Shown here piece by piece: positions 4,801 to 52,514 of a DNA stretch of 64,000 nt (position 1 is its first letter; each line of letters starts with the position of its first letter). The stretch spans positions 1 to 64,000 of the IMG/VR virus record IMGVR_UViG_3300012920_000028. One strand, 5' to 3'. The stretch comes from a virus. Made by a program: the position numbers and the translations under genes. The notes under the pieces are model-generated. The model did no database searches. It worked only from the letters and a program-made list of their open reading frames with translations, and had not been told where the DNA came from.

Positions 4801-4853
4801 CATTACGTTTGCCCCGAACTCCTCAATGGGATTCCGAGACGGTTTCTTCGTCT

Positions 4854-9357: not shown

Positions 9358-9578
9358 TGCGGCGCTCAATCCCTCTTCGAGTCATTGGCTACCTGATGTT
9401 GCTCCAAGGAGTCCTTGAGTTCTATGTGGACGGTTCATCCCCCCGCTCCGTTCTCATTTTCGCCGTAGGCCTGTGGCTTCTTTCCCGGGCGTCGGTGCCC
9501 TTAACCGGCGAGGACCCTTCCCCGGTTCATGGACCGGCACTACCTGCAGGCGTCTCACCGCGTAATGGATGGAGATGA
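9357..9578 (+). CDS. Small membrane protein (2 TM)
   Basis: TGATG coupling to the previous gene; two hydrophobic stretches. Confidence 0.45.
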   Translation: MRRSIPLRVIGYLMLLQGVLEFYVDGSSPRSVLIFAVGLWLLSRASVPLTGEDPSPVHGPALPAGVSPRNGWR

Positions 9579-9765
9579 AGTCGCTTCGCTTCTTGCCTCG
9601 CAAGGCATCGAGATGAACCAGTTGCCTGCAATCTTCCTCGGCGACCCGGGTCTTCGAAACGAAGGAATCGTCGTCGCTGAAGGCGATGTTCTCGAAATCA
9701 CTCGCTACGCGACGGAAAAGTTCCCGGGCGGAACCCTTTATCGCCGTGTCGTCAAGGGTTGGTGA
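9529..9765 (+). CDS. rpo5: DNA-directed RNA polymerase subunit Rpo5/H (Rpb5 C-terminal domain)
   Basis: H.L...H......E...LL....I...QLP.I...DP.......GDV.EI.R......YR.VV signature; archaeal short form. Confidence 0.85.
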   Translation: MDRHYLQASHRVMDGDEVASLLASQGIEMNQLPAIFLGDPGLRNEGIVVAEGDVLEITRYATEKFPGGTLYRRVVKGW

Positions 9766-9766
9766 T

Positions 9767-10210
9767 GTGAAGTTGGAACTATGGACGGATGGCTCCTGCT
9801 TCAAGGACGACCCGACTGACTCCATCGGTCCCGCGGGCTCTGGAATCGTGTGCGTTGACGTCGATAGCGGCAAGATTCAGTTTCTCCTTGGAGAATACAT
9901 CGGCATTGAATCCAACAACTACGCGGAGTTCCGCGCAATCGAAATCGGGCTTGACGAAGTGTCTCGGCGCTATGAAGTGGACGAATCTTTCGACATTGAG
10001 GTCGTTTCGGATTCGAAAATGGCCGTGAACGTCCTTTCCGGCAACTGGAGCACGAACCTCCCTGAGTACCGAGAAATCACTGCCCGGATTCAGGAACTTG
10101 AGGAAGAACTTGGCGTCGTCATACAGTATTCGTGGGTCAAGGCACATGTAGGCGTTCACTTCAATGAACTGGCGGACTACCTCGCCTACAATTCGGCACG
10201 GGGGGACTGA
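9767..10210 (+). CDS. rnhA: Ribonuclease HI
   Basis: WTDGSC, NNYAE, SDS and WVKAH...NELAD catalytic motifs. Confidence 0.9.
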   Translation: MKLELWTDGSCFKDDPTDSIGPAGSGIVCVDVDSGKIQFLLGEYIGIESNNYAEFRAIEIGLDEVSRRYEVDESFDIEVVSDSKMAVNVLSGNWSTNLPEYREITARIQELEEELGVVIQYSWVKAHVGVHFNELADYLAYNSARGD

Positions 10211-10211
10211 C

Positions 10212-13200
10212 GTGGTTATCGGAGAACCGGAAGAAGTCTTGGAGGAGGAAGACCTTTCCGTCACAGGCTTCTTTTGGTTTGTTCCCTACGATGAAATCCG
10301 GCATATGGAGCGTGGTGAGGTCACCTACGACTTCGACTTCCCCTCGCCGCGATTCGTCCCTTCAACGATGCAATCAGCACGCCGTTGGTTCACAACCTCT
10401 CCTGAAGCGGCAGGTCTCCGGACACGTGCCGACCACATGGTCGTGGTCAAGGTGTCGAACATCCCGTTCGACCCGGAGAGGTTCGATGAAGAGAAGGCGG
10501 AGGATTGGCTTTCAGCAGACATCCGACATACGGGCGAAGAGACAGAACTGGCTGGCTACGTCGTCGAACCATTCCAAGCCACGCTCAAAGTCACGATGAA
10601 GAACCTCTCATTCTTCAAAGAGACGAAGGAATGGGCGGCTGTTGAGGTGGGAATCCTTTCCCCGGAAGAAATCCGTAGCATGGCGAAGGTCAAGGTCACT
10701 GAAGAGCAAATCTACGCGAGCGACGAGATGTCCTCTCCTGTCGTTGGTGGCGTCGAAGACCTTCGAATGGGAACCTATGCAAAGGACACCCCTTGTGGAA
10801 CGTGTGGCCTCACTTGGAACGAGGACTTCTTGAAATCGTGCCCCGGGCACTTCGGCTACATTTCTCTTGAGGTTCCGGTCCCGAATTGGTTCTATCTTGG
10901 TGGCTCGAAGAATCCTTCTCAGCAATCTCCGCTCCTTTACGCTCTCAACCACACTTGCATGCACTGCCAGCGAATCCTGCTGCCTGACTCCAAGGTTGAA
11001 TTGTTGGAGCGATATGTGTTCAACGTGCGTAGCATGAACCTTCTGAATACGGCAGGTTATGACCTCGTTCGCGCCGAGGTTCGAACCTTGATGGACGAGC
11101 ACCACGGGGTCAAGAGCAGTGATTCCCGACCGAAGGAGTACGTCTGCCCCCACTGTGAGAAAGTCTCGCCGCAGGTGTCGTTCGCCCTCTCCGCTTTCAG
11201 TCGCTACAAGCACGTGTTCTACCCAACGAACCGTGAATACGACGACGAGAGCGATGATGTCGTCACCTACCCCTACGAGGACGTATTCCGCAGGCTCGAA
11301 GACATCCCCGAAAGGGATTCGGCCGCACTCGGGTTCAGCGAGGGCTCGGTTCCTTCTCACATGTTCTTCACGGACTTGCCCGTTGCACCCGTGGTCACCC
11401 GTCCGCCTGCAACGACCCCTTCAGGTGCGTATGCTCCGAGTGACCTATCCGAGTTGTATGTGGCGGTCTTGCAGGTCAACAACAACATTCGTCGCCGTCG
11501 AACTGAACTCCGCGAGGACAAGGCGAAGAGGAATGCGATGTCACGTAGCCTGTTCAAAGCAGTGGCTCAGTTGATGACGGGTCAATCAAGTGGAATTGGC
11601 TCCGGAGGGATGAAAATAGGCATGGCCGCCAATGGGGCCATGACTCCTCGCAATCTTCGCGGGGTGTACGACCGCATCAAAGGTGTGGGCAAACAGAAGA
11701 ACGAGATGAGGAGGAACGTGCAATCGAAAGTCGACGAGCACGTGGCTTATTCGGTAATCACCCCCGACCCCGCGCTTCAGATTGACGAAATCGGTGTTCC
11801 ATACCCTGTGTGCTTCGAATTGACGCGCCGCATCGAAGTCACCGAAGAGAACTATGACGAGATGCTCTCCTACGTGATGAACGGGGACCAAGAAGCGATT
11901 CCGAAGGGGAAGAAAACGAAGGACTTCGACTTAAGCCGCTACCCCGGTGCGAAGCGTGTGATTCGCGGCAACGGAACGGTGTCTTCACTACTGGAGCCAG
12001 CACGAGATTTCGGAGAGTCAGAACTCGATTTCGCCCTACGCCAAGCGAACTTCTTGGACCGGAAGTCAAACCTTCTGGTTGGGGACATCGTGGAGCGTCA
12101 CCTTATCCCCGGCGACGTTGTTCTCTTCACACGTGCACCTGCCCTTCACCGTCAGAACCTCATGGCTTTCCGTGTCGTCCCGGTCAAGACCCGGAGCCTT
12201 TCATTCAACCCCTCAGTCTGCATTCCGTTCAATGCGGACTTTGACGGGGACGCCATGAGGATGTACGTTCTCCAGTCTGAGGAAGCAATCGAAGAGGCGC
12301 TCGAAACGATGCGCGTCGAGACACAGATGCTTCACTCTCGCTACGGCCGAACCTTCCTCACGTTCGACCAAGATGAAATCAGCGGCGGCTACCTCTTGAC
12401 GTTCAAGAACGAGCCCGAAGCCGGGACACATCCGGAGAAACGGAGCGGATGGGGCTTTGACGACGACGGCTACCCGATTCTCAGTAAGGCACGTGTCCTG
12501 AACATCCTTCAGGCCGCCTTCTCTCGTGACGAAGAAGGTTCACTCACCTACAGAACACGTTTCCCTCCGCCCATCACCAGCGGCCGATTCAAGGGGTGCT
12601 ACCGTGGCCGTGACATCATCTCGATGTTCCTTCCACCGGGAATCAACGCACGCTATGAGAACCGAACCGGACAAGAAATCGTCATTCGGAATAGCGTCAT
12701 TGGACCGGGTGCCCTTGACGACAGGTTCTTCGGAACTAAGGCTGGTCTTCTTGCACCTGCTTTCATCTATCGCTACGGGTGGGAGGAAGGTCACCGCCTT
12801 CTTGCCGAGGTCACGAATGAAATGTCTCGTGTCGTCTTCTCAGCACACGTTGAGTACGGCTTCTCCCTCGGAATCGCTGACATCTCCTTCATTCGACCCG
12901 AGTCAAAGTCGGACAAGGAATACTTCGACTTGGCGGAGAAGGGCTTCAAGAATCAAGTGGACGAGAACGGACGGCCTATTCGGAGTCTGAGCCCTTACGT
13001 CTTCATTGACGACGCTATGGATATGGTGGAGAGCATCATTCACGACATTGACCTGAAGTTCGAGGCGCGCAACATCGAGGCAATCAAGGACATCGACATT
13101 TCTTTCCTGAACTACGTGAACGAAAAGGGAGAGGAAAAGACCTTTGAGACGTTGAGCATCAACATGAAGGAGTTCGTTAAGGACCCAATTTTCGCGAAAG

Positions 13201-14990
13201 AAAACGTAGTCCGTGCAATCACCAATGCGTTCAATGATTGGGTCATCGCCTTCATCAAAGCGAACCAAAAACCGACGGACGCTATGAACATCACATTGAA
13301 CTCCGGTGGTCGCGGGAACCCGCTCCAACTCCGGCAGATGATTGGCTCGCTCGGGCAGCATCAATTGAACGGGCCGGGTCGTCCGAAGCACGGTTATAGC
13401 GCGAGGAAGGTCCTTTCCTGTTCACGGGACGACATGAACCCACGCGACCGTGGCTTCATCCGCACCTCCTACGCGAGAGGTCACGACCCCGATGGGTATT
13501 GGTTCGCCTCCACGGCCGGTATTCGTTCAACGATGGAATCTTCTCAGGGCGGAATCGCAAAGTCCGGCTACATGGAGCACAAGATGAAGCGGAACCTTGA
13601 GCACCTCATGGTGGACGACAAGCGTCGGGTCATTGACCTTCGGTCAGGGACAATCGTTTCTCTTTCAGTCGGAGGAGACAATCTGCATGCGTTCCACCCA
13701 CGCGGACCCGACAACAGCGACGGCCTCGATTTCGAAATCCAACCACTTCTCCTTGATTTTGAATGCAAACACGGGTTGAGCCTCTATGACTCGTGTGCCG
13801 AGTGCAGCAGCGGCACCCCTAACCTCCTCCCACGTGCCATCCTACCGGACAACATCAAGGCTCAAGTCGAAAAGGCAGTTGAGGGGAGAGAACTTGACGA
13901 AGAATCGAAGAAGGGCTTCCGTGATTCGTTGCGTTCCTATTACAACACGTGTCTGATTCAAATTGGCGAAATGATTGGTTCCACAGGTGCGGCAAACCTC
14001 GGCGAACCGGCTACTCAGGCGGGACTTCGTGCGTTCCACGGTGGCGGTCAAGGAACGGTTCCGACCGTGGACAGGCTTGTGCAGGTGTTAGAACTCGTGA
14101 AAAAGAAGCAAGAGCAACCGCAAACGACGCTTCTCCTCAAAGATGACTACAACACCCGAGAGAACGCCGAGCGGCTTGCTTCTTTCTGCACGACCGTGAA
14201 CTTCGAAGAGGTCATGGAGAAGGTCGAATACAACCCCGAGGAGTTCGAAATCGAAATCACCCTGAACATCGAAAGGCTGGAACTCTTCGAAATTGATGAC
14301 GAATGGGCGCGTCATACGCTCAAGAAGGTGTTCGAATCCGACGGCACTCGGAAGGTGACCTTCTTTGAAAGCCCAATCGCGAAGGTCCGATGCCGAGAAG
14401 ACGCACGTGACCTCCTCATCGCCCGACATATGCTCGGGAACATCCCGCTTTCGGGAATCAATGACTCCCAACTTGCCTTCGTTTATGACGACGGAGAGGG
14501 GCAATACGGAGTGAGCATTCGTGGACCAATCAAAGGCAGCGATGCGGTGAATATCCCGAAGTTCTGGCAAGACATCGTGGACTTCATGAGTGAATACGTG
14601 GACCTCTCCAAGACCAAGTTCACCGACTCATGGATGGTTTACAACATTTACGGACTCGAAGCATCCCTCAACCATCTGTGCGAATCCATTTACGAGCAAA
14701 TGAACGGAATGGAAGGTGAGAAGGGGATTGGGGAACTGGATTATCGCTACATCCGGGTCATGGCTGACTACATGGGGATTTACGGCGAACCTATCGGACT
14801 CAAGAAATCCGGACATATGGTGAAGTTCAACAAGAGCCTTCTCGCTGCCCTCGGTGGTGAAGACCCGATGCTCGCCCTGCACGGTGCAACGGTCATGGGG
14901 AACTATGATACGCTCAAGGGTCCGGTTGAGGCTATCGCCGCAGGCAAGCAACTCAACATTGGGGCACACTACCGTCGAAAGACGACATGA
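10212..14990 (+). CDS. rpo1: DNA-directed RNA polymerase largest subunit (Rpo1/Rpb1-like, A'+A'' in one ORF), divergent
   Basis: ILSPEEI, CGTC...CPGHFG Zn site, R.PALH, NADFDGD at 12231-12251, SGY bridge helix, GEPATQ...FH trigger loop, DYR....ADYM. Confidence 0.95.
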   Translation: MVIGEPEEVLEEEDLSVTGFFWFVPYDEIRHMERGEVTYDFDFPSPRFVPSTMQSARRWFTTSPEAAGLRTRADHMVVVKVSNIPFDPERFDEEKAEDWLSADIRHTGEETELAGYVVEPFQATLKVTMKNLSFFKETKEWAAVEVGILSPEEIRSMAKVKVTEEQIYASDEMSSPVVGGVEDLRMGTYAKDTPCGTCGLTWNEDFLKSCPGHFGYISLEVPVPNWFYLGGSKNPSQQSPLLYALNHTCMHCQRILLPDSKVELLERYVFNVRSMNLLNTAGYDLVRAEVRTLMDEHHGVKSSDSRPKEYVCPHCEKVSPQVSFALSAFSRYKHVFYPTNREYDDESDDVVTYPYEDVFRRLEDIPERDSAALGFSEGSVPSHMFFTDLPVAPVVTRPPATTPSGAYAPSDLSELYVAVLQVNNNIRRRRTELREDKAKRNAMSRSLFKAVAQLMTGQSSGIGSGGMKIGMAANGAMTPRNLRGVYDRIKGVGKQKNEMRRNVQSKVDEHVAYSVITPDPALQIDEIGVPYPVCFELTRRIEVTEENYDEMLSYVMNGDQEAIPKGKKTKDFDLSRYPGAKRVIRGNGTVSSLLEPARDFGESELDFALRQANFLDRKSNLLVGDIVERHLIPGDVVLFTRAPALHRQNLMAFRVVPVKTRSLSFNPSVCIPFNADFDGDAMRMYVLQSEEAIEEALETMRVETQMLHSRYGRTFLTFDQDEISGGYLLTFKNEPEAGTHPEKRSGWGFDDDGYPILSKARVLNILQAAFSRDEEGSLTYRTRFPPPITSGRFKGCYRGRDIISMFLPPGINARYENRTGQEIVIRNSVIGPGALDDRFFGTKAGLLAPAFIYRYGWEEGHRLLAEVTNEMSRVVFSAHVEYGFSLGIADISFIRPESKSDKEYFDLAEKGFKNQVDENGRPIRSLSPYVFIDDAMDMVESIIHDIDLKFEARNIEAIKDIDISFLNYVNEKGEEKTFETLSINMKEFVKDPIFAKENVVRAITNAFNDWVIAFIKANQKPTDAMNITLNSGGRGNPLQLRQMIGSLGQHQLNGPGRPKHGYSARKVLSCSRDDMNPRDRGFIRTSYARGHDPDGYWFASTAGIRSTMESSQGGIAKSGYMEHKMKRNLEHLMVDDKRRVIDLRSGTIVSLSVGGDNLHAFHPRGPDNSDGLDFEIQPLLLDFECKHGLSLYDSCAECSSGTPNLLPRAILPDNIKAQVEKAVEGRELDEESKKGFRDSLRSYYNTCLIQIGEMIGSTGAANLGEPATQAGLRAFHGGGQGTVPTVDRLVQVLELVKKKQEQPQTTLLLKDDYNTRENAERLASFCTTVNFEEVMEKVEYNPEEFEIEITLNIERLELFEIDDEWARHTLKKVFESDGTRKVTFFESPIAKVRCREDARDLLIARHMLGNIPLSGINDSQLAFVYDDGEGQYGVSIRGPIKGSDAVNIPKFWQDIVDFMSEYVDLSKTKFTDSWMVYNIYGLEASLNHLCESIYEQMNGMEGEKGIGELDYRYIRVMADYMGIYGEPIGLKKSGHMVKFNKSLLAALGGEDPMLALHGATVMGNYDTLKGPVEAIAAGKQLNIGAHYRRKTT

Positions 14991-17679
14991 GGTAGTGTCG
15001 GAAACCGGGAGTCAGGAGACGCTGGTCCCACCCGAGAGCATCATAGATGCCCTTTAGCGTCCCGTGAATGTGCGTCTTCGCGAGGGACTCCCAATCAATC
15101 GTGTACTCCGCAAGTTCCTCTTCACGGCGGAATGCGATACGCCCGTTGCCCGGGATGACCGTCGGCCCGTCCTTGACGATGACCCACTTCACCTTGTCTC
15201 GCTTCGCGTATTCGTCCTCTTCGCTCTTCGCGAGGTACATGTTGTACCATAGCGCCCCCGACGAAAGCCAATAGTGCCCGTAGCACTTGTCGTCTTCGTT
15301 GAGGGTGTCTTGCTTCGGGCACGCGCCACAGTCGCAGACAATAGGCATTCCCCGCCAATCAACATGGTGCGGTAGGTGCTTCCTGAGCGTTTGTGCGGCG
15401 GTCAGTTCCTCAAGGTCAACCTCGCCGTCAAGGACGGCTTTCAGTCGCTTCTTGACCTTCTTCTGCACGACCTTTTCGGGGACCTTGTCGAAGAGGTCCA
15501 TGAGAAGTCCGAGTTGTATGTCCGTTCCGAGAGAGGAAGTCGTCGTTCGCTTGGCCTGCATCCCTGACATCTTGAGACGAGCCCACGGTTCTTCTCGCAT
15601 GTCGATGTCGGCGACCTTGAATCCCTTCTTGTCGTCCCACACTTTCCGACCGGCATACATGCCCTTCACGTTGGCGAGGTAAAACCGGTCCATGATGACC
15701 TCAAGGTCAAGCGACATGGCGGTGGAATTGGTCCTCCCCTGCATTTCCTTTGTGATGTCCTTTCCGAGAGCCACCGCTTCGTCATGGACACGCTCGGCTT
15801 CCCATTCGGAAGGGAAGACCACGAAGATTGAGTCCGTGTGTCCGTAAATGACGCGGAAACCGGCCTTCTCAGCCAACGCCTTCGCCGTGAGAAGGGCTTC
15901 ACGCCCCCCAGCGGTGATTGAGGCAGCGACATCGCGGTCGAACCACGCGAACTTGTCGAAGGCCATGATACCGTACATGGACGCGCGCAGCCTCTTCACG
16001 CCGAGTTGCATAGCGTTCCACTTCGTAGCCGCCTCCTTGTCGTTCTTCGCTTCTGCTTCCTTGAGCAATGCCTTGTACTCGTCACGTTGTGTGTTCAAGC
16101 GGCGAACGATGGTAGGCAGGACACCTGTCGTGTCGGTTCGGAAGCGAACGCCACCATGCCCGACGCTATCGGTGGACAGGTGTTCCTGTCCTTCCCTGAC
16201 TTTCGTTTCGGGACTGATGTTCTTTGCTTCCATGACGCTTGGGTATAGGCCCGCGTAATCGAGCATCCCGACGTTATCGTGCATACCAGCCGCATTGGTG
16301 TAGACGTTGTCGTCTTCGGGGTCGCGTTCTTCGGGCTCCTCACCGGGGTGGAGGATGATTGCACCTTGAAGGTCGTCTTCAGCGTCACTCTCCTCACTGT
16401 AGGGGCGATACTTGGGGCGCCACCATGCTTCGCGATAGAACATGACGTTTCCGACACGGGATGCCTTCATGGTCGAGGGAAGTTGGCTACCGATGAGCGT
16501 CTGTTGAACCTTGTAGCCCTTGACGATGTTCCACTTCTCATCGAGCATGACGAGCAGTTCAACGTCGCGGATGTTGTAGCGGAGGAATTCGTCCCACGTG
16601 GCATCGTAGTCCTTGTCGTACCATCCCGGGCTTGGGTTCTTCCCTTCCTTGAAATTGTCCCACGCTACCGCCTGAAGGCTCAATCCACCGGGCGGGTCTT
16701 GGTTCGTGGAGTCCTTGTACACGCGCTCATAGCACAACATGAGGTCGAGGGTATCAACACCCCGAATGGGGGCGTCAGTCACCTTGTAGCGGTGCCTGTT
16801 GCGAGGGTCCGGGTCAATCATGATTCCATAGGGTGAGAGGGAACCAGCGCCATAAACAGGCCTCGGGAACAGACCGTTCTCGCACTCCCCCGCCATGTCG
16901 TTCATCAAATGGGGAATCCCGAGGCTTTCCATGCGATGATAAAGCGTCGGAAGGTCATACCCGGCACTGTTCCAGCCGGTCATGACGTCGAAGTCCATGG
17001 CGAAGAACCAATCACCGAATGCCTTCAGCATGTCGTACTCCGTGGTGAAGCGGTGTTCCGTACCCCATTCATGTCTGATGGAAGCCCTCGTCCAATTCGG
17101 GTGACATCCAAAGGCGGTGTATTCCTTCGTGAAATTGGAGTACGCCGCGATGGAGTTGACCATCTGTGTGTCGTACCAAAGTCCCTCGTGAGTCACGCTC
17201 TTCAGCCACTTCATGCGCTCGGGGTCCGTGTCGCGGAACTGCAAGGCTTCGATGTCGAAATAGCAGACGTGATAGTCGAAGTCTTCGACCTCGATGTCGT
17301 TATGAATGAGGACGGCGTCTTCTTGAGGGAGAGAACCGCCCCACGTTGGCCCATAGTTGCGAAGGAAGAAGGACATGGCTCCACGAGTCACGCACTCGAC
17401 CTTGTACAGGGGTTGCTTTTCGATGGACAACCCTTCGGGGGCCACGGAATGAACAAGGTCACTATCGAGGAGGAAGTCAATGGCTTCGCTCGCGTAGTCG
17501 AAGTCAGGCACATTCTTGCCCGGAAGAGCACGGAATGAAGAGGGCTGGATGTAAAACGTGGGGTATTCGTCATAGAAGTCCACAACGCGCACACCGTCCT
17601 TACGGTAGCGAACTGCTACGCGAGAACCGTCTTCCATTCGCCACTTCCCTTGTACCTGCTCGCACACGCTGATGTTCAT
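14953..17679 (-). CDS. polB: Family B DNA polymerase with 3'-5' exonuclease domain
   Basis: FDIE, GWNS..YD, YN..DV, DYAGLYPS, K...SMYG, YGHTDS; ATGA overlap at the start. Confidence 0.95.
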   Translation of the reverse strand: MNISVCEQVQGKWRMEDGSRVAVRYRKDGVRVVDFYDEYPTFYIQPSSFRALPGKNVPDFDYASEAIDFLLDSDLVHSVAPEGLSIEKQPLYKVECVTRGAMSFFLRNYGPTWGGSLPQEDAVLIHNDIEVEDFDYHVCYFDIEALQFRDTDPERMKWLKSVTHEGLWYDTQMVNSIAAYSNFTKEYTAFGCHPNWTRASIRHEWGTEHRFTTEYDMLKAFGDWFFAMDFDVMTGWNSAGYDLPTLYHRMESLGIPHLMNDMAGECENGLFPRPVYGAGSLSPYGIMIDPDPRNRHRYKVTDAPIRGVDTLDLMLCYERVYKDSTNQDPPGGLSLQAVAWDNFKEGKNPSPGWYDKDYDATWDEFLRYNIRDVELLVMLDEKWNIVKGYKVQQTLIGSQLPSTMKASRVGNVMFYREAWWRPKYRPYSEESDAEDDLQGAIILHPGEEPEERDPEDDNVYTNAAGMHDNVGMLDYAGLYPSVMEAKNISPETKVREGQEHLSTDSVGHGGVRFRTDTTGVLPTIVRRLNTQRDEYKALLKEAEAKNDKEAATKWNAMQLGVKRLRASMYGIMAFDKFAWFDRDVAASITAGGREALLTAKALAEKAGFRVIYGHTDSIFVVFPSEWEAERVHDEAVALGKDITKEMQGRTNSTAMSLDLEVIMDRFYLANVKGMYAGRKVWDDKKGFKVADIDMREEPWARLKMSGMQAKRTTTSSLGTDIQLGLLMDLFDKVPEKVVQKKVKKRLKAVLDGEVDLEELTAAQTLRKHLPHHVDWRGMPIVCDCGACPKQDTLNEDDKCYGHYWLSSGALWYNMYLAKSEEDEYAKRDKVKWVIVKDGPTVIPGNGRIAFRREEELAEYTIDWESLAKTHIHGTLKGIYDALGWDQRLLTPGFRHYLMSSFDGSVPQC

Positions 17680-18641
17680 AGTACCAACCTCTCTTCCAGC
17701 CGGACCACGGACCCATTCGCCCGATAGTCGATAACACGGTGATATTGGAGCCACAAGAGCGGTGTGTTGTGGTTCTCAAGGTAAATACGACGAGCCTTCC
17801 CATATGCGCCCCATTCTTCGACCGACATGCGGTGCTTTTCCGCAAGGAAAGACCGGATTTCTAACGGCGGGATGGTTTCACCAACCGGATAGCGGGAGAT
17901 GAAGACCCATAGTGTCCGGCAAGCCTTGAGGTTCACTACGGAGGTGCTTTCGGACCGTTCTGCGCTATCAAGGGACTTTCTCCACACCGTCAAACGGACT
18001 TCCCCGTCCATCTCAGTGACGTGAAGGTAGCGTTCCTTCTTCTCGCCCCTATGGACAAGACGCGCTCGGTCAAACGGCGTTTCCTCACGCACCTCCGGCT
18101 CCGGTTCGGGGAGCACGACAGGTGTCGGCTTTGGTTCCGCTTTTGGTTTCGGCGCATTGCCGAAAGAGGACAAGACGGATTGTCCGGGCGCGATTTCAGG
18201 AACCTTCTCTTTGGGCGGAGCCAATTCCTTGAGCGCGTCGAGAATGTCCTTCCGCTTGCACTTCCTTACGCACCCGAAGCCACCATCCTCTTTCACTTGT
18301 AGGTGATTCTTTCCGTTTCCGTCAGCCCCTTGCTTCGCACAAGAGGGACATTGCGCGGAATACCAGCCATTCCCTGACTTCCGGAGATTGACGAGGCTCT
18401 CCCTTGCTTCCCATACAGGGTTCCCACCGTCCGCCATGAGGAAAGGGAGAGGTTCACCGGAGTTGTGGGCGTGAAGGAGGACTTCGAGCCTCCCCATTTC
18501 CTTCTCGGTCTCGAACAACACGTGTCCATCTTCGATGCGCTGGTGCCTGAGCGCGTAGTCGGAGCGAACCTTCGAACCAATCAGTTCGAGGTACAGTGAA
18601 ACGGGGACTCTCATGGAACCGGAAAGCGAATCATCCGGCAC
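17676..18641 (-). CDS. Protein with primase-type Zn-binding domain
   Basis: AQCPSC...HL.......GC...C...DIL motif; coupled to polB. Confidence 0.5.
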   Translation of the reverse strand: MPDDSLSGSMRVPVSLYLELIGSKVRSDYALRHQRIEDGHVLFETEKEMGRLEVLLHAHNSGEPLPFLMADGGNPVWEARESLVNLRKSGNGWYSAQCPSCAKQGADGNGKNHLQVKEDGGFGCVRKCKRKDILDALKELAPPKEKVPEIAPGQSVLSSFGNAPKPKAEPKPTPVVLPEPEPEVREETPFDRARLVHRGEKKERYLHVTEMDGEVRLTVWRKSLDSAERSESTSVVNLKACRTLWVFISRYPVGETIPPLEIRSFLAEKHRMSVEEWGAYGKARRIYLENHNTPLLWLQYHRVIDYRANGSVVRLEERLVL

Positions 18642-19323: not shown

Positions 19324-19694
19324 AAAATCATCTCCTCGCGATAGGGTTTCTTGGCATCAACGAAAATCCATGAGCGTTGGAGAGAGTCCGGAAGTTTCCC
19401 TGCTTTCTTGGCGAAGAAGTCGTCCTTGGTTTCGGAGAAGAGGACCTCGATGTAGGGTAGGACATGTGTTGGTGCGACAATATCCGGACGTGTTCCACAC
19501 TTGAGACGGGCTTCCGTGCAGAAAGGGACGTCATGCTCAAGAAGAGTGAGGGCGACCTCGCAGACGCGGAGATTGTGCTCATACGTGTTCCCCTTGCTCA
19601 ATTTGATGACCCCCCAATGAGGTTTGAACATAGGGTCGAGATGTTCACGCGACCAATCGTTCAGTTCTTTCTGCATTTTCGAGGAGTACCTCAA
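19320..19694 (-). CDS. PD-(D/E)XK nuclease-like protein
   Basis: EH...TE.......RPDI......IEV. Confidence 0.6.
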   Translation of the reverse strand: MRYSSKMQKELNDWSREHLDPMFKPHWGVIKLSKGNTYEHNLRVCEVALTLLEHDVPFCTEARLKCGTRPDIVAPTHVLPYIEVLFSETKDDFFAKKAGKLPDSLQRSWIFVDAKKPYREEMIF

Positions 19695-20584
19695 AGAATA
19701 CCCTCCCACTCAAGGTCGTGAAGGTTTCCGTCTTGGTCGTAGTACTTCCCCTCATAGAAGAGCCGCTTCGAGACGATGTTCCCTACTACCGAAGCGGTCC
19801 AGCCGCTCGTTTCATTGCGAGCCGAAACGCCTTCCGCATTGAGAGTCTTCGCGATTGAGGCACGCGACATGCCGTCTTCGTGCATCGCGAACACACGTCG
19901 GACGGAATCCGCTTCCCGCGGCTCTATTTCGAGGACTCCCTTCAGTTCGGGGTCCCCTCTCCCGTCGGCTTCGTCAGCACTTCGTTTGTAGGCCGAGCGA
20001 TACCCCATAGGAGGCCGACCGACGTGGCGCCCCGCGTTCTTCTTCCCCTTCAACCCCGAGGCGGTCCTCTCGCTGATGATGTCCGCTTCCATCTGAGCGA
20101 CAGAAATCATGATTCGGAAGATGAGCATTCCCATGGCGGTCGTCGTGTCGATTTGTAGGTCACGGAAAACGAAGTCCTTCTCGGCTCGCTGAAGGGTCTC
20201 CGCCCATTCACCAGCATTTCGGACGTTTCGATGGAATCGGTCCATTTTTGCCGCGATAACGACGTCCCAGTTCTCCATTTCGCTCATCATGCGCTGGTAT
20301 TCGGGGCGTTGGGTGTTCGTCCCGCTGAACCCTTCATCTCGGTATTCCTCGACGACCTCCCACCCCTGAGCGGCGCAATAGGCACGGCATTCGCGAAGTT
20401 GCTGCTCAATGGAGGTCTCGGACTGGGTTCCTCCGTCTTTGTCGCTTGTGGAGATGCGAGCGTAGATTCCAGCCTTCCTTGCAGAAGGGGCCGTTGTGAA
20501 AAAGGGGGAAAGTGAAAGAAGCAAGGTCAATGAGGCATACCCAAAGAGGGCGAATAGGGATTCAATCATGGCTTGATTCCTCAC
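19691..20584 (-). CDS. Serine recombinase (resolvase/invertase catalytic domain plus recombinase-type C-terminal domain)
   Basis: IYARIST, QQ..C, DEGFSG...RP, DRFHRN, ERT..G, GRPP.GY. Confidence 0.9.
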   Translation of the reverse strand: MRNQAMIESLFALFGYASLTLLLSLSPFFTTAPSARKAGIYARISTSDKDGGTQSETSIEQQLRECRAYCAAQGWEVVEEYRDEGFSGTNTQRPEYQRMMSEMENWDVVIAAKMDRFHRNVRNAGEWAETLQRAEKDFVFRDLQIDTTTAMGMLIFRIMISVAQMEADIISERTASGLKGKKNAGRHVGRPPMGYRSAYKRSADEADGRGDPELKGVLEIEPREADSVRRVFAMHEDGMSRASIAKTLNAEGVSARNETSGWTASVVGNIVSKRLFYEGKYYDQDGNLHDLEWEGIL

Positions 20585-36314: not shown

Positions 36315-36318
36315 TACA

Positions 36319-37529: not shown

Positions 37530-39068
37530 TCACTCCCCGAACTCGTCAGGCTCCTTCGCAATGATGATGTTGTCGATGCGCAGGAGGAGCGAAGCCGTCG
37601 CTGTTGCGCTCTCAAGCGCGCTCTTCACCACCTTGAGGGGTTCAACCACGTTCTCTTCCGCCATATCCACCACGCCGCCGGTATAGACGTTCAAACCGGC
37701 ATTCTTTGCGCCTTCCGCGTGAGCCTTCCTCAGTTCACGGAGCGTCGCAATTGGCTGAAGTTGTCCACTGTTCTCAGCGAGGGTGAGCGGAATGATTTCG
37801 AGAGCGTCAGCAAAAGCCTCGACCGCGAGGGATTCAAGGCCGCCCACGCTCGCGGCGTAGGTCCGGAGGTGTTGAGCCATTTCGACTTGAGAAGCACCGC
37901 CCCCGGCGAGAACCTTCCCCTCCTTTCGAGCGACGTGCACCACGCCGATAGCGTCGTCCATGGCGCGGCTGATTTCCTCGGCAGTCTGCTGGGTAGGGGC
38001 ACTGACGACGAGAGAAACCGCATTGGCGTTAGGGGTGTCCTTGAGAATGAAGAAGCCACGCTGACCTGCGCTGGCACTCACTTCCTCAATGCTTCCACAC
38101 GTGCCGAGGTCTTCGACCTCAAGGTCTTCGAGACCGGAAACGATGAGAGCACCCGTAGCGTCGGCCACAGCCTCAAGATTGGAAGCAGCGCAGCGACGGC
38201 ACGCAATGATGCCGTGGCGCGCGAACAGTTCCGCAAGGGCTGGGTTGATGTCCTTTGACGCAAGAACCACGCTTGCTCCGAGGCCGAGAATGTGGTCGGC
38301 CATTCCCTGCAAGAGATTGCGCTGGTTCGCACGGAAGGCCTCAGCGTCCTGCGCCGTGTTGAATTGAAGGTTCGTTCCCTTCGCCATTGCCGGAAGGTCG
38401 AGAGCACCGTCCACGAGCGCGATGGAGGCATTCTCAATGTCCGAAGGCATGGCGTTGTGCATCTTCACCTGACCGATGACAATTCCGTTCGGAGCGTAAG
38501 AGTCCGTGACGGGTGAACCGTAGCGAGGAATGATGTTGATTGAGCCCGGGGAAGCATTCTCCGTCGCCTCCACGCACAGGACTGCGAGATGGTCTTTCGA
38601 CTCCTCAGCAGACTTCCCCGTCATGGCGGTCTTCGCCACTTCGAGAAGGTAGTCTTCCGCAGGAAGGGTGAGCGTTTCGGCAACCTCCTGACACTTCTTC
38701 AAGGCCAGATGGTAGCCGCGAACAATGGTCGTCGGGTGGACCTTCTTCGCGATGAGGTCCTCCGCTTGCTTCAGGAGTTCACCTGTGATGACGATTGCTG
38801 ACGTCGTTCCGTCGTAGCACTCCTCTTCCTGCGTGCGCGCGACCTCGACCATCATGTGTGCCGTGGCGTGGGTGAAATTGGTTTCCTTGAGAATGGTGGC
38901 CCCGTCGTTCGTCACTACCGTACGACCGCTCCGGTCAACGAGCATCTTGTCCATTCCCATAGGGCCGAGGGTCGAACGGACCAATTCGGCGACAAACTTG
39001 CCGATTCCGATGTTGACCTCTTGGGCCGTCTGCGTCTTCTGCTGCTTGGCGTCTGTGGCTTGACTCAT
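37530..39068 (-). CDS. ths: Group II chaperonin (thermosome)
   Basis: STLGPMGMDKM, VTNDGATIL, DGTTS, HPT.I..GY, GGG..., EP..V...A..SA. Confidence 0.95.
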   Translation of the reverse strand: MSQATDAKQQKTQTAQEVNIGIGKFVAELVRSTLGPMGMDKMLVDRSGRTVVTNDGATILKETNFTHATAHMMVEVARTQEEECYDGTTSAIVITGELLKQAEDLIAKKVHPTTIVRGYHLALKKCQEVAETLTLPAEDYLLEVAKTAMTGKSAEESKDHLAVLCVEATENASPGSINIIPRYGSPVTDSYAPNGIVIGQVKMHNAMPSDIENASIALVDGALDLPAMAKGTNLQFNTAQDAEAFRANQRNLLQGMADHILGLGASVVLASKDINPALAELFARHGIIACRRCAASNLEAVADATGALIVSGLEDLEVEDLGTCGSIEEVSASAGQRGFFILKDTPNANAVSLVVSAPTQQTAEEISRAMDDAIGVVHVARKEGKVLAGGGASQVEMAQHLRTYAASVGGLESLAVEAFADALEIIPLTLAENSGQLQPIATLRELRKAHAEGAKNAGLNVYTGGVVDMAEENVVEPLKVVKSALESATATASLLLRIDNIIIAKEPDEFGE

Positions 39069-44018: not shown

Positions 44019-45245
44019 TCACCCGTCGTAGGAAACGCGCTTCAAGCGCCGGACTTCTGCTGAATGAACGAGAACGTGAGGGTTGGTGTCAGCCTGAGAG
44101 GTGACGACGCCGAAAGCACCGTTTTGACTCGCCCCGCTGCCGGGGCCAGAGGGGTCATAGGTGCGGACGCGGATAGGAGGGGGTGCATACTGAAGACCGG
44201 GGGAAACCTCCACCCGAAGACAGTTCGCGTAAGCGGAGCCACCATTTGTCGCGAACTTGGTCGGTAGGTTCACACTGTCAGTGACGCCTTGAATGGCGCC
44301 CGGGAAATACAGGTTCCTTCCGTCCTTGAGCCACATGCGCGCACCCGAGACGTATGTCCCAGCCGAAAGCGTAGCGCCTGCAAAGTCGGCGAAATAGATG
44401 TATTGGGACGTCCGAGAGGGCCACGTCCTTGCGTCGTCGTCGTTTCCTTGGACTCGAAGGACCGGGTCCACAAAAACGTGCATGGTGTTCGTCATGGCGG
44501 TCGTCGGGGCGGCGGCAACAGGGACGGGTTCTCCGAAAGAAAAGGTCGGCTTCCCGGCAATCCCCACATAGGGATGATATGCGCCGGGCGCAAGAGTAAG
44601 GCCGTTAGGCGTCATGAACGTCTTGTTCGGGACACCGGGCGTGTTATAGAAGTCAGGGGAATGGACGATACCGTAGGCGTTGTTCAGGAGGCTCGTTTCG
44701 GAGCCAAAAACATCATTGTGTGGAATCACGGCACCGCCGCTGAATCCAAGATTCTTTGGAGTGGCGAGGCCAGAACGTGAGGTGTACCCTCCAGCGCGGT
44801 CGGCATCGAGGGGTTGACCGAAAACTTCCGTGGAGGGACGAATCCTGTTCCGGAGCACTACGCGAACGCGGCCGTCGAAATCTTCGGGGAGGTCAGGGTT
44901 GTACAGCAAAGTGTAGCCGGCACCGGGGGAACCACCGTCAATCGCTTGGAAATTCGAAAGCAGGCGCCCCGTTTCGGGTTGGGAGAGCAGTTCAGCCGCG
45001 CTCGTGTTTTCATTCCGCCAGTCGTCGAGTTCCACATAGACCTCAAGGTAGGGGTTATCCGAAACCACACGGATTTCGTACAGGTCGCCGCGCTCCTTCG
45101 AATCGAGGAGGACGTATTCTCCACCCGAGTCAAGAATGAGGTTCCGGATTGACTCCCGAACCATTCGACGGTCAACGCGGCCTTTCTGCGTGACGTAAGG
45201 GGCATTATCCGCGACATTCGCGGCGATGATGCTTTCTTCAGACAC
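44019..45245 (-). CDS. Putative structural protein (beta-rich)
   Basis: 408 aa in the structural operon; GGTGA RBS. Confidence 0.55.
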   Translation of the reverse strand: MSEESIIAANVADNAPYVTQKGRVDRRMVRESIRNLILDSGGEYVLLDSKERGDLYEIRVVSDNPYLEVYVELDDWRNENTSAAELLSQPETGRLLSNFQAIDGGSPGAGYTLLYNPDLPEDFDGRVRVVLRNRIRPSTEVFGQPLDADRAGGYTSRSGLATPKNLGFSGGAVIPHNDVFGSETSLLNNAYGIVHSPDFYNTPGVPNKTFMTPNGLTLAPGAYHPYVGIAGKPTFSFGEPVPVAAAPTTAMTNTMHVFVDPVLRVQGNDDDARTWPSRTSQYIYFADFAGATLSAGTYVSGARMWLKDGRNLYFPGAIQGVTDSVNLPTKFATNGGSAYANCLRVEVSPGLQYAPPPIRVRTYDPSGPGSGASQNGAFGVVTSQADTNPHVLVHSAEVRRLKRVSYDG

Positions 45246-52048: not shown

Positions 52049-52514
52049 CCTCGATGAGAAGTGAGGGCGTATCGAAAAGGATGCTCGCCACGTTCGTCAG
52101 GTAGTTCTCAAACCCCGCGGCTTCGGTGAAATTGGAAATGCCGTCTTCTTCGAACTGCTCCGTCATAGAAGCGAGCAGTTGTGGCTCCGTCACGGCGGGA
52201 ATCGCGAACATCACGACCGTTGATTGCCCCCATTCTTCGAGGTTATACCCATGCACAGTTTCTCCTTCCACGAATGGGAAGGAATGAATGTCCAAGTGCA
52301 CGTTTGCTTTGGGGAGCAATTCGAAGAACTTCTTTGTGAAGGTAGTGTCGTTCGGGCGGTTAAGGTCGATGACCTCGCGGGGGATTTCCCCGACGAGACT
52401 TTCGAACTCAAGACCTTCTTCCGTGAGCGCCCTCTCAAGAATCGGGCGGATGATGGTTGAGCCGAAGTCATACTGTCCGCTTGGCGCGGCGTGGGGGAAG
52501 GTCAGGAGAATCAT
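51933..52514 (-). CDS. Zn-carboxypeptidase-fold hydrolase (N-formylglutamate amidohydrolase-like)
   Basis: TFPH, DLNR, LDIHS, LIEV. Confidence 0.6.
   Translation of the reverse strand: MILLTFPHAAPSGQYDFGSTIIRPILERALTEEGLEFESLVGEIPREVIDLNRPNDTTFTKKFFELLPKANVHLDIHSFPFVEGETVHGYNLEEWGQSTVVMFAIPAVTEPQLLASMTEQFEEDGISNFTEAAGFENYLTNVASILFDTPSLLIEVNEEDDDAYSAVAAALVEGLRSFLSVGPSMTASSGTLP

What the first reader, a model, noticed from the sequence alone, without database searches (positions are those of the whole stretch)
9529..14990. Probable archaeal virus encoding its own multisubunit RNA polymerase subunits (Rpo1 and Rpo5)
Seen: Rpo5, RNase H and an intact-active-site Rpo1 (NADFDGD) lie beside PolB in a genome that also has a packaging ATPase and virion-type membrane genes. 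Established: characterised archaeal viruses generally use the host RNAP, and cellular archaea keep the order rpoH-rpoB-rpoA. Here rpoB is missing between them (RNase H sits there) and the sequence is very divergent. Inference: a transcriptionally autonomous, or host-RNAP-rewiring, archaeal virus that parallels nucleocytoviruses.
Basis: partly seen in the sequence, partly recalled or inferred. Interest (0 to 1): 0.9.

Follow-up and report, generated by a model that had tools for sequence, protein, structure and literature searches.

The report
Marine archaeal virus with half a polymerase
An uncultured marine virus-like element linked to Marine Group II archaea carries genes for the largest subunit and one small subunit of an archaeal-type RNA polymerase but not for the second catalytic subunit, so it most likely rebuilds the host's polymerase rather than bringing a complete one.

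Summary
Window 9529-17754 holds a tight operon: Rpo5/RpoH, RNase H, then an unsplit 1608-aa Rpo1 with an intact NADFDGD. It runs head-on into a family B DNA polymerase.

The record is a 72.8-kb fragment (about 52% complete) of an IMG/VR virus. Its gene set (PolB, thermosome, resolvase, RNA polymerase A) matches the 'magrovirus group D' that Philosof et al. 2017 mention in one passage and leave undetermined.

- **No Rpo2:** none is found in this contig or in seven related records, including a complete 140-kb genome with terminal repeats. Controls find Rpo2 easily elsewhere.
- **Operon conserved:** Rpo5-RNase H-Rpo1 next to PolB occurs in all four genomes examined.
- **TFB:** one relative also encodes TFB.
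- **Rpo1 phylogeny:** the family forms its own long-branched clade, outside sampled archaea and outside giant-virus-like sequences.
- **Selection:** 18 of 19 coding variants between samples are synonymous.
- **Host hints:** the thermosome and PolB point to Poseidoniales (Marine Group II).
- **Virion hints:** a jelly-roll protein and a HerA/FtsK-type ATPase suggest a tailless virion.

Best reading: a chimeric virus-host RNA polymerase, not an autonomous one. This is inferred, not shown. This scan's notes had already flagged the same stretch, on this same DNA.

The parts
9529..9765 (+). Rpo5/RpoH homologue (78 aa, C-terminal domain only). First gene of the operon.
   Evidence: Pfam PF01191, E 2e-9. 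Homologues sit upstream of Rpo1 in G001, G002 and G003. It aligns with the C-terminal domain of Marine Group II RpoH.
9686..10210 (+). RNase H (type 1), in the place where cells have rpoB. The real start is probably GTG near 9758.
   Evidence: Pfam PF00075, E 1.1e-12. It holds the same position in G001, G002 and G003.
10164..14990 (+). Unsplit Rpo1 (A'+A'' in one chain; 1608 aa as the longest ORF, probably 1592 aa from GTG 10212).
   Evidence: Rpb1 domains 1-5. The best solved relatives are archaeal Rpo1N, 266.5 bits. The family comprises 43 clusters. Tree.
10212..10631 (+). Family-specific N-terminal extension of Rpo1 (about 140 aa), placed before the clamp core.
   Evidence: Absent from cellular RpoA in the alignment. 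Conserved positions are listed. The fold was not obtained (pLDDT 44.8).
12231..12251 (+). Catalytic metal-binding loop NADFDGD (residues 690-696).
   Evidence: N690, A691, D692, D694, G695 and D696 are invariant in 19 family members. Alignment.
13518..13601 (+). Bridge helix, altered: the cellular DTAV-RT reads ESSQGGI, with one extra residue. SGY is kept.
   Evidence: Alignment with archaeal and giant-virus-like sequences.
13764..13805 (+). Family-specific CxH...CxxC insert, at the point where split archaeal A' chains end in the alignment.
   Evidence: C1201, H1203, C1211 and C1214 are invariant. In the alignment the A' chains of Pyrococcus and Poseidoniaceae end here.
14001..14051 (+). Trigger loop (GEPATQAGLRAFHGGG), with the Leu and His kept.
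   Evidence: G1280 to H1292 are largely invariant in the family.
14953..17754 (-). Family B DNA polymerase, convergent with Rpo1 (38-nt overlap of the ends).
   Evidence: Pfam. PDB best hits are Thermococcales PolB and E. coli Pol II, with Pol delta weak. The best deposited viruses are haloarchaeal tailed viruses at 23-25% identity. It is adjacent to Rpo1 in G001, G002 and G003.
19691..20584 (-). Serine recombinase ('resolvase'), one of the four markers of magrovirus group D.
   Evidence: Pfam Resolvase, E 8e-38. Philosof 2017 passage.
37530..39068 (-). Thermosome subunit (group II chaperonin). A hint to the host.
   Evidence: Pfam, E 3.9e-141. The Marine Group II chromosomal copies score 434-437 bits, against 382.5 or less for other archaeal thermosomes in the PDB and 256 or less for CCT. 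46 of 80 nearest genome loci are named Poseidoniales.
44019..45245 (-). Conserved 408-aa jelly-roll protein, a candidate capsid protein.
   Evidence: AF2 model with pLDDT 79.4. The best structural match is an SPV1 capsid chain: Z 9.2, rmsd 2.8, 127 residues aligned. It is present in the G001, G002, G003 and G009 records.
52511..53365 (-). HerA/FtsK-type P-loop ATPase, a candidate genome-packaging ATPase.
   Evidence: Pfam DUF87, E 2.3e-6. phrog_2666 'terminase large subunit', E 2.5e-18. Conserved in G001 and G003.

Best explanation
The window is about half of the genome of a large (roughly 110-140 kb) uncultured marine virus-like element. It belongs to the lineage described in 2017 as 'magrovirus group D' and is associated with Marine Group II archaea (Poseidoniales).

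Its conserved operon Rpo5-RNase H-Rpo1 encodes a catalytically intact, unsplit largest RNA polymerase subunit and the small subunit that docks on it. No second-largest subunit is encoded.

The most likely mechanism is subunit replacement. During infection the viral Rpo1/Rpo5 module would assemble with host Rpo2 and the host assembly platform (Rpo3/10/11/12 and Rpo6) into a chimeric polymerase. The altered bridge helix, the N-terminal extension and the zinc insert would change its promoter, factor or inhibitor specificity in favour of viral genes. One sub-lineage adds its own TFB.

Shown:
- the genes, their conservation and purifying selection;
- the absence of Rpo2;
- predicted Rpo1-Rpo5 docking.

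Inferred:
- assembly with host subunits;
- any change of specificity;
- the host itself.
For: **Genes and motifs.** Rpb1 domains 1-5 and Rpb5_C are present. NAD[FY]DGD, both zinc sites, RxPxLHR and the trigger-loop Leu/His are invariant across 19 divergent family members.

**Purifying selection.** 18 of 19 coding variants between independent runs are synonymous; in Rpo1 it is 10 of 11.

**No Rpo2.**
- Pfam Rpb2_6 searched in six frames: 0 of 8 family records match at E<=1, including G003 (140,336 bp, terminal repeats, 100% complete).
- Rpb2_7: 0 in G000.
- Controls: a giant-virus record matches at 2e-104, and two Marine Group II genomes match at 1e-120.
- phmmer with Marine Group II RpoB against six frames of G000, G001 and G003 gives a best E of 0.77. 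Marine Group II RpoA' finds all three Rpo1 at 4e-85 to 1e-67.
- A giant-virus Rpo2 query gives a best E of 0.14.
- hhalign of 145 proteins of 200 aa or more against an Rpo2 alignment gives a best probability of 5.3%.

**Operon conserved.** The order Rpo5-RNase H-(X)-Rpo1 next to PolB holds in 4 of 4 genomes examined.

**Predicted docking.** Viral Rpo5 on the viral Rpo1 C-terminal region scores 0.76, with the best of 3 controls at 0.00. That mark was reached by 58 of 80 solved complexes and 2 of 110 mismatched pairs. The runs agree in at least 97% of contacts, and the partner's pLDDT is at least 84. My own alignments were used. Like complexes (Rpb1-Rpb5, RpoA''-RpoH) are solved, so the pass may come from memory.

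**Archaeal transcription context.** G002 carries a full TFB (zinc ribbon plus two cyclin repeats, E 2.4e-47) beside PolB.

**Host hints.** See the thermosome scores and the PolB affinities.

**Literature.** Philosof 2017, passages seen.
Against: - No experiment or transcript data bear on this.
- Assembly of a viral Rpo1 at 25-37% identity to host A'/A'' with host Rpo2 is untested. The interface is very large, and the bridge helix is altered at normally invariant positions, which could equally mean a changed or lost function.
- The only complete genome (G003) belongs to a distant sub-lineage (28% Rpo1 identity). For the window's own sub-lineage, the union of G000 and G001 leaves about a fifth of the genome unseen (CheckV 52% and 79%).
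- The host link rests on one gene. The genome scan used patterns drawn from an alignment that already held Poseidoniales-like sequences.
- Xu et al. 2023 found group D enriched in the cellular size fraction and raised a plasmid-like nature.
- I know of no precedent for a virus replacing only the largest RNA polymerase subunit (recalled, not tested).
Confidence: 0.5

Rival explanations
1. The element does have a complete polymerase of its own. The partner subunit would be too divergent to recognise, or encoded on an unseen part of the genome or on a second segment.
For: G000 and G001 are incomplete (52% and 79%). Several large conserved proteins have no family assignment: 883, 1135 and 1193 aa. 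Some phage polymerases (crAss-like, phiKZ-like) escape sequence searches (recalled).
Against: The complete G003 has none. Rpo1 itself is easily recognised (E 2e-38), so a co-evolving partner should be recognisable too. hhalign of all 145 proteins of 200 aa or more gives at most 5.3% probability.
Confidence: 0.1
2. Rpo1/Rpo5 act as a decoy or poison subunit. They would soak up host Rpo2, the platform subunits or factors (Spt4/5, TFE, TFB) to shut down host transcription, without making RNA for the virus.
For: The bridge helix departs from the cellular consensus, and the N-terminal extension and zinc insert are of unknown role. Archaeal viruses are known to repress host polymerase, for example ATV ORF145/RIP (abstract seen in the listing).
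Against: A decoy would not need invariant catalytic aspartates, trigger-loop His/Leu and both zinc sites across members as far apart as 28-55% identity. A 4.8-kb gene is a costly inhibitor.
Confidence: 0.1
3. It is a maintenance gene, an auxiliary gene in the cyanophage psbA sense. The virus would resupply the largest subunit (and Rpo5) to keep host-type transcription going after host shut-off or subunit turnover, with no change of specificity.
For: The same data that support assembly with host subunits. The thermosome in the same genome is likewise a host-type housekeeping function.
Against: The very long stem branch and family-specific inserts argue against a simple stand-in. Recently captured host genes usually stay close to the host, as the thermosome does at 45% against Rpo1 at 25-37% in pieces. 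A TFB in one lineage suggests redirected initiation.
Confidence: 0.15
4. It is not a virus at all, but a plasmid-like or other mobile element, or a cellular fragment, of Marine Group II archaea that carries a paralogous rpoA.
For: Philosof 2017 left the nature open. Xu 2023 found group D enriched in the cellular fraction and suggested plasmid-like elements. No HK97 capsid, portal or classic terminase turned up in G000. A serine recombinase and DNA methylases are present.
Against: - A conserved block pairs a jelly-roll protein (best match an archaeal virus capsid chain, Z 9.2) with a small HerA/FtsK-type ATPase that hits a packaging PHROG, plus an aspartyl protease.
- G003 has terminal repeats and a 100% CheckV estimate.
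- There are no rRNA, tRNA or ribosomal operons.
- Z 9.2 is only just above the usual background of 7-8 stated by the tool, so the capsid call is tentative.
Confidence: 0.15
5. It is a small relative of eukaryotic giant viruses (Nucleocytoviricota-like) infecting a marine protist.
For: Rpo1 is unsplit, as in eukaryotes and giant viruses. A Ras/Arf-like GTPase was noted by another reader, WD40 is faint, and a SWIB domain occurs in G003.
Against: - Rpo1 lies outside the giant-virus/eukaryote-like clade.
- PolB is not delta-like.
- The thermosome is archaeal, not CCT.
- Rpo5 is the short archaeal form.
- Unsplit RpoA also occurs in Thaum-, Aig- and Bathyarchaeota (names).
- There is no Rpo2, which giant viruses that have Rpb1 also have (recalled).
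Confidence: 0.03

Closest known systems
'Magrovirus group D' (Philosof et al. 2017, Curr Biol, PMC5434244; also Xu et al. 2023, PMC10160649)
   Same: [quoted passage not shown] It comes from marine metagenomes. No head-tail morphogenetic genes were recognised.
   Different: [quoted passage not shown] New here:
- a closed 140-kb relative;
- the Rpo5 partner;
- the conserved operon;
- the lack of Rpo2;
- a TFB in one lineage;
- a candidate jelly-roll capsid protein plus a HerA-type ATPase, which suggests it is not a head-tailed magrovirus at all.

Identity with the published scaffolds could not be checked, because the supplements are closed.
Virus-encoded multisubunit RNA polymerases of Nucleocytoviricota and jumbo phages
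   Same: A virus carries a homologue of the largest catalytic subunit with NADFDGD, plus, as in giant viruses, an Rpb5 homologue.
   Different: Those viruses encode both catalytic subunits. A giant-virus control record has Rpb2_6 at 2e-104. Here there is none in 0 of 8 records. Rpo1 is not nested among them.
Cellular archaeal rpoH-rpoB-rpoA'-rpoA'' operon
   Same: The order starts with rpoH and ends with rpoA on one strand. A Marine Group II chromosome shows rpoH(216 aa)-rpoB(1202)-rpoA'(1063)-rpoA''(519)-L30e.
   Different: rpoB is replaced by RNase H. rpoA is unsplit, as in Thaum-, Aig- and Bathyarchaeota, and carries an N-terminal extension and a zinc insert at the split point. Rpo5 lacks the long N-terminal part of Marine Group II RpoH.
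Specialised polymerases made by swapping subunits into a shared core (plant Pol IV/Pol V with NRPD1/NRPE1 and NRPE5). Recalled from memory, not tested here.
   Same: A variant largest subunit and a variant Rpb5-type subunit would give a shared core a new task. This is the working analogy for the proposed mechanism.
   Different: Those are cellular paralogues, and they also have their own second-largest subunit. Here the variant subunits are virus-encoded and the second-largest would be the host's.
[quoted passage not shown]
   Same: The end result would be redirected or repressed host transcription.
   Different: The means is a full-length catalytic subunit, not a small binding protein. It is an exception to the stated rule, at least at the level of subunit genes.

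Membership tests
Rpo1/RpoA/Rpb1 (largest subunit of archaeal-eukaryotic RNA polymerase) | Rpb1 domains 1-5 in order | tested here: met
   PF04997, PF00623, PF04983, PF05000 and PF04998 are all above cut-off.
Rpo1/RpoA/Rpb1 (largest subunit of archaeal-eukaryotic RNA polymerase) | Catalytic NADFDGD loop, clamp zinc sites, RxPxLH, bridge helix and trigger loop | tested here: met
   These are invariant in 19 family members. The bridge helix is present but altered (ESSQGGI in place of DTAV-RT).
Rpo1/RpoA/Rpb1 (largest subunit of archaeal-eukaryotic RNA polymerase) | Works paired with an Rpo2/RpoB subunit | not testable with these tools
   No viral Rpo2 exists. Pairing with host Rpo2 needs biochemistry or a complex model beyond the 1000-residue limit.
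Rpo5/RpoH/Rpb5 | Rpb5 C-terminal domain | tested here: met
   PF01191, E 2e-9; relatives at 2e-10 and 1.7e-12. Alignment with Marine Group II RpoH.
Rpo5/RpoH/Rpb5 | Docks on the C-terminal (A''-like) part of Rpo1 | tested here: inconclusive
   The complex model scores 0.76, with the best of 3 controls at 0.00. The mark was reached by 58 of 80 solved and 2 of 110 mismatched pairs. Contacts agree at 97% or more, and the partner's pLDDT is 84 or more. Like complexes are solved, so the pass may come from memory.
Virus with a complete multisubunit RNA polymerase of its own (Nucleocytoviricota type) | Encodes both Rpo1 and Rpo2 homologues | tested here: not met
   Rpb2_6 is found in 0 of 8 family records, one of them complete. 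phmmer and hhalign are negative while the controls are positive.
Magrovirus group D (Philosof 2017) | Co-occurrence of PolB, thermosome, resolvase and RNA polymerase A with archaeal affinities; no recognised head-tail module | tested here: met
   All four are in the window.
Magrovirus group D (Philosof 2017) | Sequence identity or clustering with the published group D scaffolds | not testable with these tools
   The scaffolds are listed only in supplements, which are closed, and are not in the 'phages' collection.
Head-tailed archaeal viruses (Caudoviricetes, Magrovirales) | HK97-fold capsid protein, portal, terminase large subunit | tested here: inconclusive
   None was found by Pfam or PHROGs in the G000 proteins tested. 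In G003 one ORF hits a 'portal protein' PHROG at 3.1e-8 and was not followed up. The 'terminase' PHROG hit is the HerA-type ATPase.
Tailless viruses with a jelly-roll capsid protein and an FtsK/HerA-type packaging ATPase | Jelly-roll major capsid protein | tested here: inconclusive
   The 408-aa model has pLDDT 79.4. Its best match is an SPV1 capsid chain (Z 9.2, rmsd 2.8, 127 aligned), then GH172/DUF2961 at Z 7.8. The tool's background is 7-8.
Tailless viruses with a jelly-roll capsid protein and an FtsK/HerA-type packaging ATPase | Small FtsK/HerA-superfamily ATPase in the same module | tested here: met
   DUF87, E 2.3e-6; phrog_2666, E 2.5e-18; phrog_1358 FtsK/SpoIIIE-like. Conserved in G001 and G003.

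The most novel reading that the evidence does not exclude
A whole lineage of abundant marine archaeal viruses takes over transcription by catalytic-subunit replacement. The viral unsplit Rpo1 and Rpo5 displace host A'/A''/H and assemble with host Rpo2 and the platform subunits. The resulting hybrid polymerase has its own promoter or factor specificity, served in some lineages by a viral TFB and by lineage-specific promoter cassettes such as the 23-copy element in G003.

The very deep branch of this Rpo1, outside sampled archaea and outside the giant-virus/eukaryote-like clade, would then mark an ancient viral polymerase lineage. That lineage would bear on how eukaryotic and giant-virus polymerases diversified.
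Probability: 0.4. Interest if true: 0.9.

Novelty: new variant of a known kind. Interest (0 to 1): 0.74.

Why it matters
The accepted rule is that archaeal viruses encode no RNA polymerase and depend wholly on the host enzyme (Sheppard & Werner 2017; abstract start seen). All viruses known to me with multisubunit polymerases carry both catalytic subunits (recalled).

A conserved, selected, catalytically intact Rpo1 plus Rpo5 without Rpo2 implies a third strategy: a hybrid virus-host polymerase. That would be a new mode of host takeover. It would also be a natural experiment in subunit exchange for a machine usually thought too integrated to be mixed.

The work also helps with an open question from 2017, what 'magrovirus group D' is:
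- it points to a closed genome;
- it identifies a candidate tailless virion module;
- it identifies a conserved transcription operon.

Finally, it supplies a deep-branching Rpo1 clade for studies of polymerase evolution. [quoted passage not shown]

Tried and rejected
**Things that led nowhere**

1. The metagenome-contig scan with the Rpo1 alignment was swamped by generic polymerases: 80 loci kept, best 26% identity, no family member. It added nothing.
2. N-terminal extension of Rpo1. The protein atlas gave a top score of 0.77, which is noise. AF2 on a 5-row alignment gave pLDDT 44.8, so no fold search was made.
3. Foldseek on the jelly-roll model gave only weak, scattered jelly-roll or cupin hits. 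VIA-align was used instead.
4. A TFIIS zinc ribbon was not found above cut-off; the best was G003 at E 0.01. No TBP was found.
5. No RNA holder was listed for the stretch, so nothing can be said on expression.
6. K-mer search for promoter motifs upstream of G000 genes found no clear shared motif. Upstream regions are not AT-richer than the genome (0.44 against 0.43).
7. Halophily, suggested by one very acidic ORF (8896-9357), was rejected. Proteome-wide D+E is about equal to K+R.
8. Cellular origin was rejected: no tRNA, rRNA or ribosomal operon.
9. Names attached to homologues were mostly absent. Two were bacterial MAG labels, 'bacterium' and 'Halieaceae bacterium', which I read as mis-binning.
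10. Literature searches for a later description of the Rpo1/Rpo5 pair, or of the lack of Rpo2 in group D, found none. Subscription journals and supplements were not searchable. Table S1 of Philosof 2017 and the tables of Xu 2023 may list group D scaffolds and genes that I could not see.
11. The tree used 47 of the 145 rows I had; the rest were left out to save time. It holds no named eukaryotic Pol I-III sequences, because none could be fetched.

Full report
**What is there.**
- Rpo5/RpoH, C-terminal domain, 9529-9765;
- RNase H, 9686-10210;
- a 1608-aa Rpo1 with all five Rpb1 domains, 10164-14990;
- a convergent family B DNA polymerase, 14953-17754.

The Rpo1 carries FNADFDGDAM. Comparison of N-termini with four relatives, together with the GTG at 10212 two bases after the RNase H stop, suggests that Rpo1 starts at 10212. 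The three genes therefore form a tightly packed operon.

**What the DNA is.** The window is the first 64 kb of a single 72,804-bp record. The tools identify it as an IMG/VR virus record, linear, with CheckV completeness 52%. It has no tRNA, no Rfam RNA, and no ribosomal or housekeeping operon among the ORFs scanned. Proteins are not acidic overall.

Besides the operon, the record encodes:
- a thermosome subunit, two N6/N4 DNA methylases, and a giant multidomain protein (guanylate kinase, DUF7831, DUF5824);
- a ligase-related 1135-aa protein;
- a serine recombinase;
- a PD-(D/E)XK nuclease and a HerA/FtsK-type ATPase.

**It is a member of a family.** A search of 5.8 billion proteins found 43 clusters of Rpo1 of the same kind, with scores of 638-3529 bits. 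Most are 1520-1731 aa; a few shorter ones (914-1477 aa) are probably truncated. They sit on contigs of up to 139 kb. After these comes a sharp drop to cellular unsplit RpoA of Aig-, Thaum- and Bathyarchaeota at about 300 bits and 25-27% identity.

Further relatives in IMG/VR:
- By Rpo1: G001 (110,123 bp, 79% complete), G002 (65,399 bp, 47%) and G003 (140,336 bp, direct terminal repeats, 100%).
- By the capsid-like protein: G007-G010, of which G009 (71 kb) also has a 1625-aa Rpo1.

Gene order is shared among G000, G001 and G003 in three blocks: RNase H-Rpo1-PolB, the thermosome block, and a late block with giant proteins.

**The operon is conserved.** Rpo5, RNase H and Rpo1 lie in that order next to PolB in G000, G001, G002 and G003. 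G002 and G003 have one extra unassigned ORF before Rpo1. In a Marine Group II chromosome the cellular order is rpoH-rpoB-rpoA'-rpoA''-L30e. The viral operon thus looks like the cellular one with rpoB replaced by RNase H and rpoA fused.

**No second catalytic subunit.**
- Pfam Rpb2 domain 6 searched in six frames finds nothing at E<=1 in any of the 8 family records. Domain 7 finds nothing in G000.
- The same search finds Rpo2 at 2e-104 in a giant-virus record and at about 1e-120 in two Marine Group II genomes.
- phmmer with Marine Group II RpoB against all six-frame stretches of G000, G001 and G003 gives a best E of 0.77. Marine Group II RpoA' recovers the three Rpo1 at 4e-85 to 1e-67, and RpoA'' at 1e-12 to 2.5e-6.
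- A giant-virus Rpo2 query is also negative.
- hhalign of all 145 predicted proteins of 200 aa or more from the three genomes against a small Rpo2 alignment gives at most 5.3% probability.
- Pfam scans of 146 of the 153 G003 ORFs of 75 aa or more list no Rpb2, TBP or TFIIB family. Seven ORFs spanning locus borders were not scanned, and 5 of 30 families in the second half were not displayed.

Caveat: the closed genome is a distant family member (28% Rpo1 identity). For the window's own sub-lineage, about a fifth of the genome is unseen.

**Other transcription parts.** TBP was not found in any of the four, and TFIIS was not found above cut-off. G002, however, encodes a complete TFB (zinc ribbon plus two cyclin repeats, E 2.4e-47) beside its PolB.

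**Is Rpo1 functional?** Across 19 family members at 31-55% identity to the query, the following are invariant or nearly so:
- the catalytic aspartates;
- both clamp zinc sites;
- RAPxLHR;
- the SGY of the bridge helix;
- the GEPxTQ...L.xFH trigger loop.

Departures from cellular enzymes:
- an N-terminal extension of about 140 aa;
- a bridge helix reading ESSQGGI in place of DTAV-RT, with one extra residue;
- an invariant CxH...CxxC insert at the point where split archaeal A' chains end in the alignment.

Contigs from three runs of another study carry the same operon at 99% or more identity. Of the 19 coding differences listed, 18 are synonymous; in Rpo1 it is 10 of 11.

A complex model places the viral Rpo5 on the C-terminal region of the viral Rpo1. 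The score is 0.76, with the best of 3 controls at 0.00. That mark was reached by 58 of 80 solved complexes and 2 of 110 mismatched pairs. The runs agree in at least 97% of contacts, and the partner's pLDDT is at least 84. My own alignments were used. Because Rpb1-Rpb5 type complexes are solved, this shows likeness rather than binding.

**Where Rpo1 comes from.** In a 47-row tree (IQ-TREE quick, LG+C20, 1251 columns) the 20 family rows form one clade (SH-aLRT 100) on a stem of 1.11 changes per site. The other side of that branch (0.69) splits into:
- an archaeal clade of 13 rows, holding both unsplit and split forms, Poseidoniaceae among them;
- a clade of 14 giant-virus or eukaryote-like rows.

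So the gene is neither a recent capture from Poseidoniales nor a giant-virus gene. The tool warns of long branches, the tree is unrooted, and no named eukaryotic sequences were available. PDB scores agree: archaeal Rpo1N 266 bits, Pol III 236, Pol II 211.

**Host.** The thermosome is of the archaeal type. Archaeal thermosomes in the PDB score 295-382.5 bits, against 256 or less for CCT. Copies at least 97% identical to those of Poseidoniales genomes, including a Marine Group II chromosome, score 434-437 bits in the same kind of search.

Of the 80 nearest loci in species-representative genomes:
- 46 are named Poseidoniales;
- 30 are unclassified Euryarchaeota, Methanobacteriota or Thermoplasmatota MAGs;
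- 4 carry bacterial MAG labels.

That scan used patterns drawn from my alignment, so it is biased towards such sequences. PolB is nearest to Thermococcales PolB and E. coli Pol II among solved structures. Among 50,697 deposited phage and archaeal-virus records it is nearest to haloarchaeal tailed viruses (23-25% identity). None of those records holds a full-length relative of this Rpo1.

**Virus or not.** A 408-aa protein conserved in G000, G001, G002, G003 and G009 has 71 relatives at E<=0.001 among 1.84 billion representatives. It folds with pLDDT 79.4 into a jelly roll with an inserted beta domain. Its best structural match is a capsid chain of Sulfolobus polyhedral virus 1 (Z 9.2, rmsd 2.8, 127 residues), followed by GH172/DUF2961 and other jelly rolls. 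That is only modestly above the tool's stated background.

Nearby lies a 284-aa HerA/FtsK-type ATPase that hits a packaging PHROG at 2.5e-18. G003 also has an aspartyl protease. Together these suggest a tailless, jelly-roll-type virion, but this is tentative. One G003 ORF hits a 'portal protein' PHROG at 3e-8 and was not followed up.

**Literature.**
- Philosof et al. [quoted passage not shown] They had no closed genome and no morphogenetic block, and left the nature undetermined (passages).
- Xu et al. 2023 report group D as lacking structural genes, enriched in the cellular fraction and possibly plasmid-like. They do not mention RNA polymerase (passages).
- A 2025 Poseidoniales virus paper calls group D 'MCP-lacking' (passages).
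- My searches found no later account of the Rpo5 partner, the missing Rpo2 or the TFB.

**Reading.** The 'own polymerase' reading does not. The best-supported mechanism is a hybrid polymerase in which the viral Rpo1/Rpo5 module joins host Rpo2 and the platform subunits (confidence about 0.5). The rivals are an undetected partner, a decoy, a plain maintenance gene, or a non-viral element.

The presence of the polymerase A gene in this lineage is already in print. The partial subunit set, its conservation and its implications are, as far as I could find, not.

Noticed in passing
G003 (relative), record positions 53,468-91,530, + strand (loci L084-L086): There are 23 copies of a cassette of about 52 nt: ATAGAAC..., then a TATA-like GAATTACA, then GGTTCACAGA. 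In 18 of 23 it runs straight into ATG. This looks like a promoter or leaderless-start cassette for one class of small genes. The core GGTTCACAGA occurs 24 times on + and 0 times on -, and is absent from G000 and G001.
   Followed up: partly
G001 (relative), about 19.8-28.4 kb, minus strand (loci L090-L091): About seven copies of a hairpin-rich intergenic element (CAGCACTCTGTGCTG ... GCAGCCAAGGCTGC ... GCCCTACGGGGC). It may be a terminator or a structured RNA.
   Followed up: no
window 4225-4271, 4759-4805, 8003-8049, 8089-8135; also 4698-4759: A four-copy 47-nt intergenic family with a TATA-like core (TTGTATATAC on +), and an exact 31-nt tandem duplication at 4698-4759.
   Followed up: no
window 50586-51653 (-): The minus-strand 355-aa ORF encodes many RRKTT/RRRKAPA basic repeats, like a DNA-condensing core protein. 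It fits the strand of its neighbours better than the longer + strand ORF 50322-51701.
   Followed up: no
L003:12622-13554 (-), record G002: A complete viral TFB (zinc ribbon plus two cyclin repeats, E 2.4e-47) lies directly beside PolB in one sub-lineage. It is not found in G000, G001 or G003.
   Followed up: partly
L003:3895-4605 (+) and L084:3516-4361 (-): An unassigned 236/281-aa ORF sits between RNase H and Rpo1 in G002 and G003 (23% identical to each other, E 1.5e-10). It is absent from G000 and G001, and its function is unknown.
   Followed up: partly
window 8896-9357 (+): A 153-aa protein with 35% Asp+Glu and a long acidic tail lies just upstream of the polymerase operon. It has no family hit. 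It could be a DNA mimic or a histone-chaperone-like protein.
   Followed up: no
window 53702-59392 (-), 59364-62771 (-) and beyond the window to 70491: A block of giant multidomain proteins is conserved in G001 and G003 (guanylate kinase, DUF7831, DUF5824, ligase C-terminal domain). Other notes of this scan treat them as Asn-Pro-punctuated polyproteins.
   Followed up: no
window 34023-37458 (-): The block of membrane proteins and a weak GTPase-like protein next to the thermosome is conserved at 41-55% identity in G003 (the GTP_EFTU match is faint).
   Followed up: no
L097 (9.7-kb contig binned in an archaeal MAG); NCBI labels: Family contigs are binned into MAGs under unrelated labels: 'Methanobacteriota archaeon', 'bacterium' and 'Halieaceae bacterium'. 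Database names for these proteins are therefore unreliable.
   Followed up: partly
window 23096-25423 (+): Two adjacent N6/N4 DNA methyltransferase genes (305 and 469 aa) have no homologues in G001 or G003.
   Followed up: no
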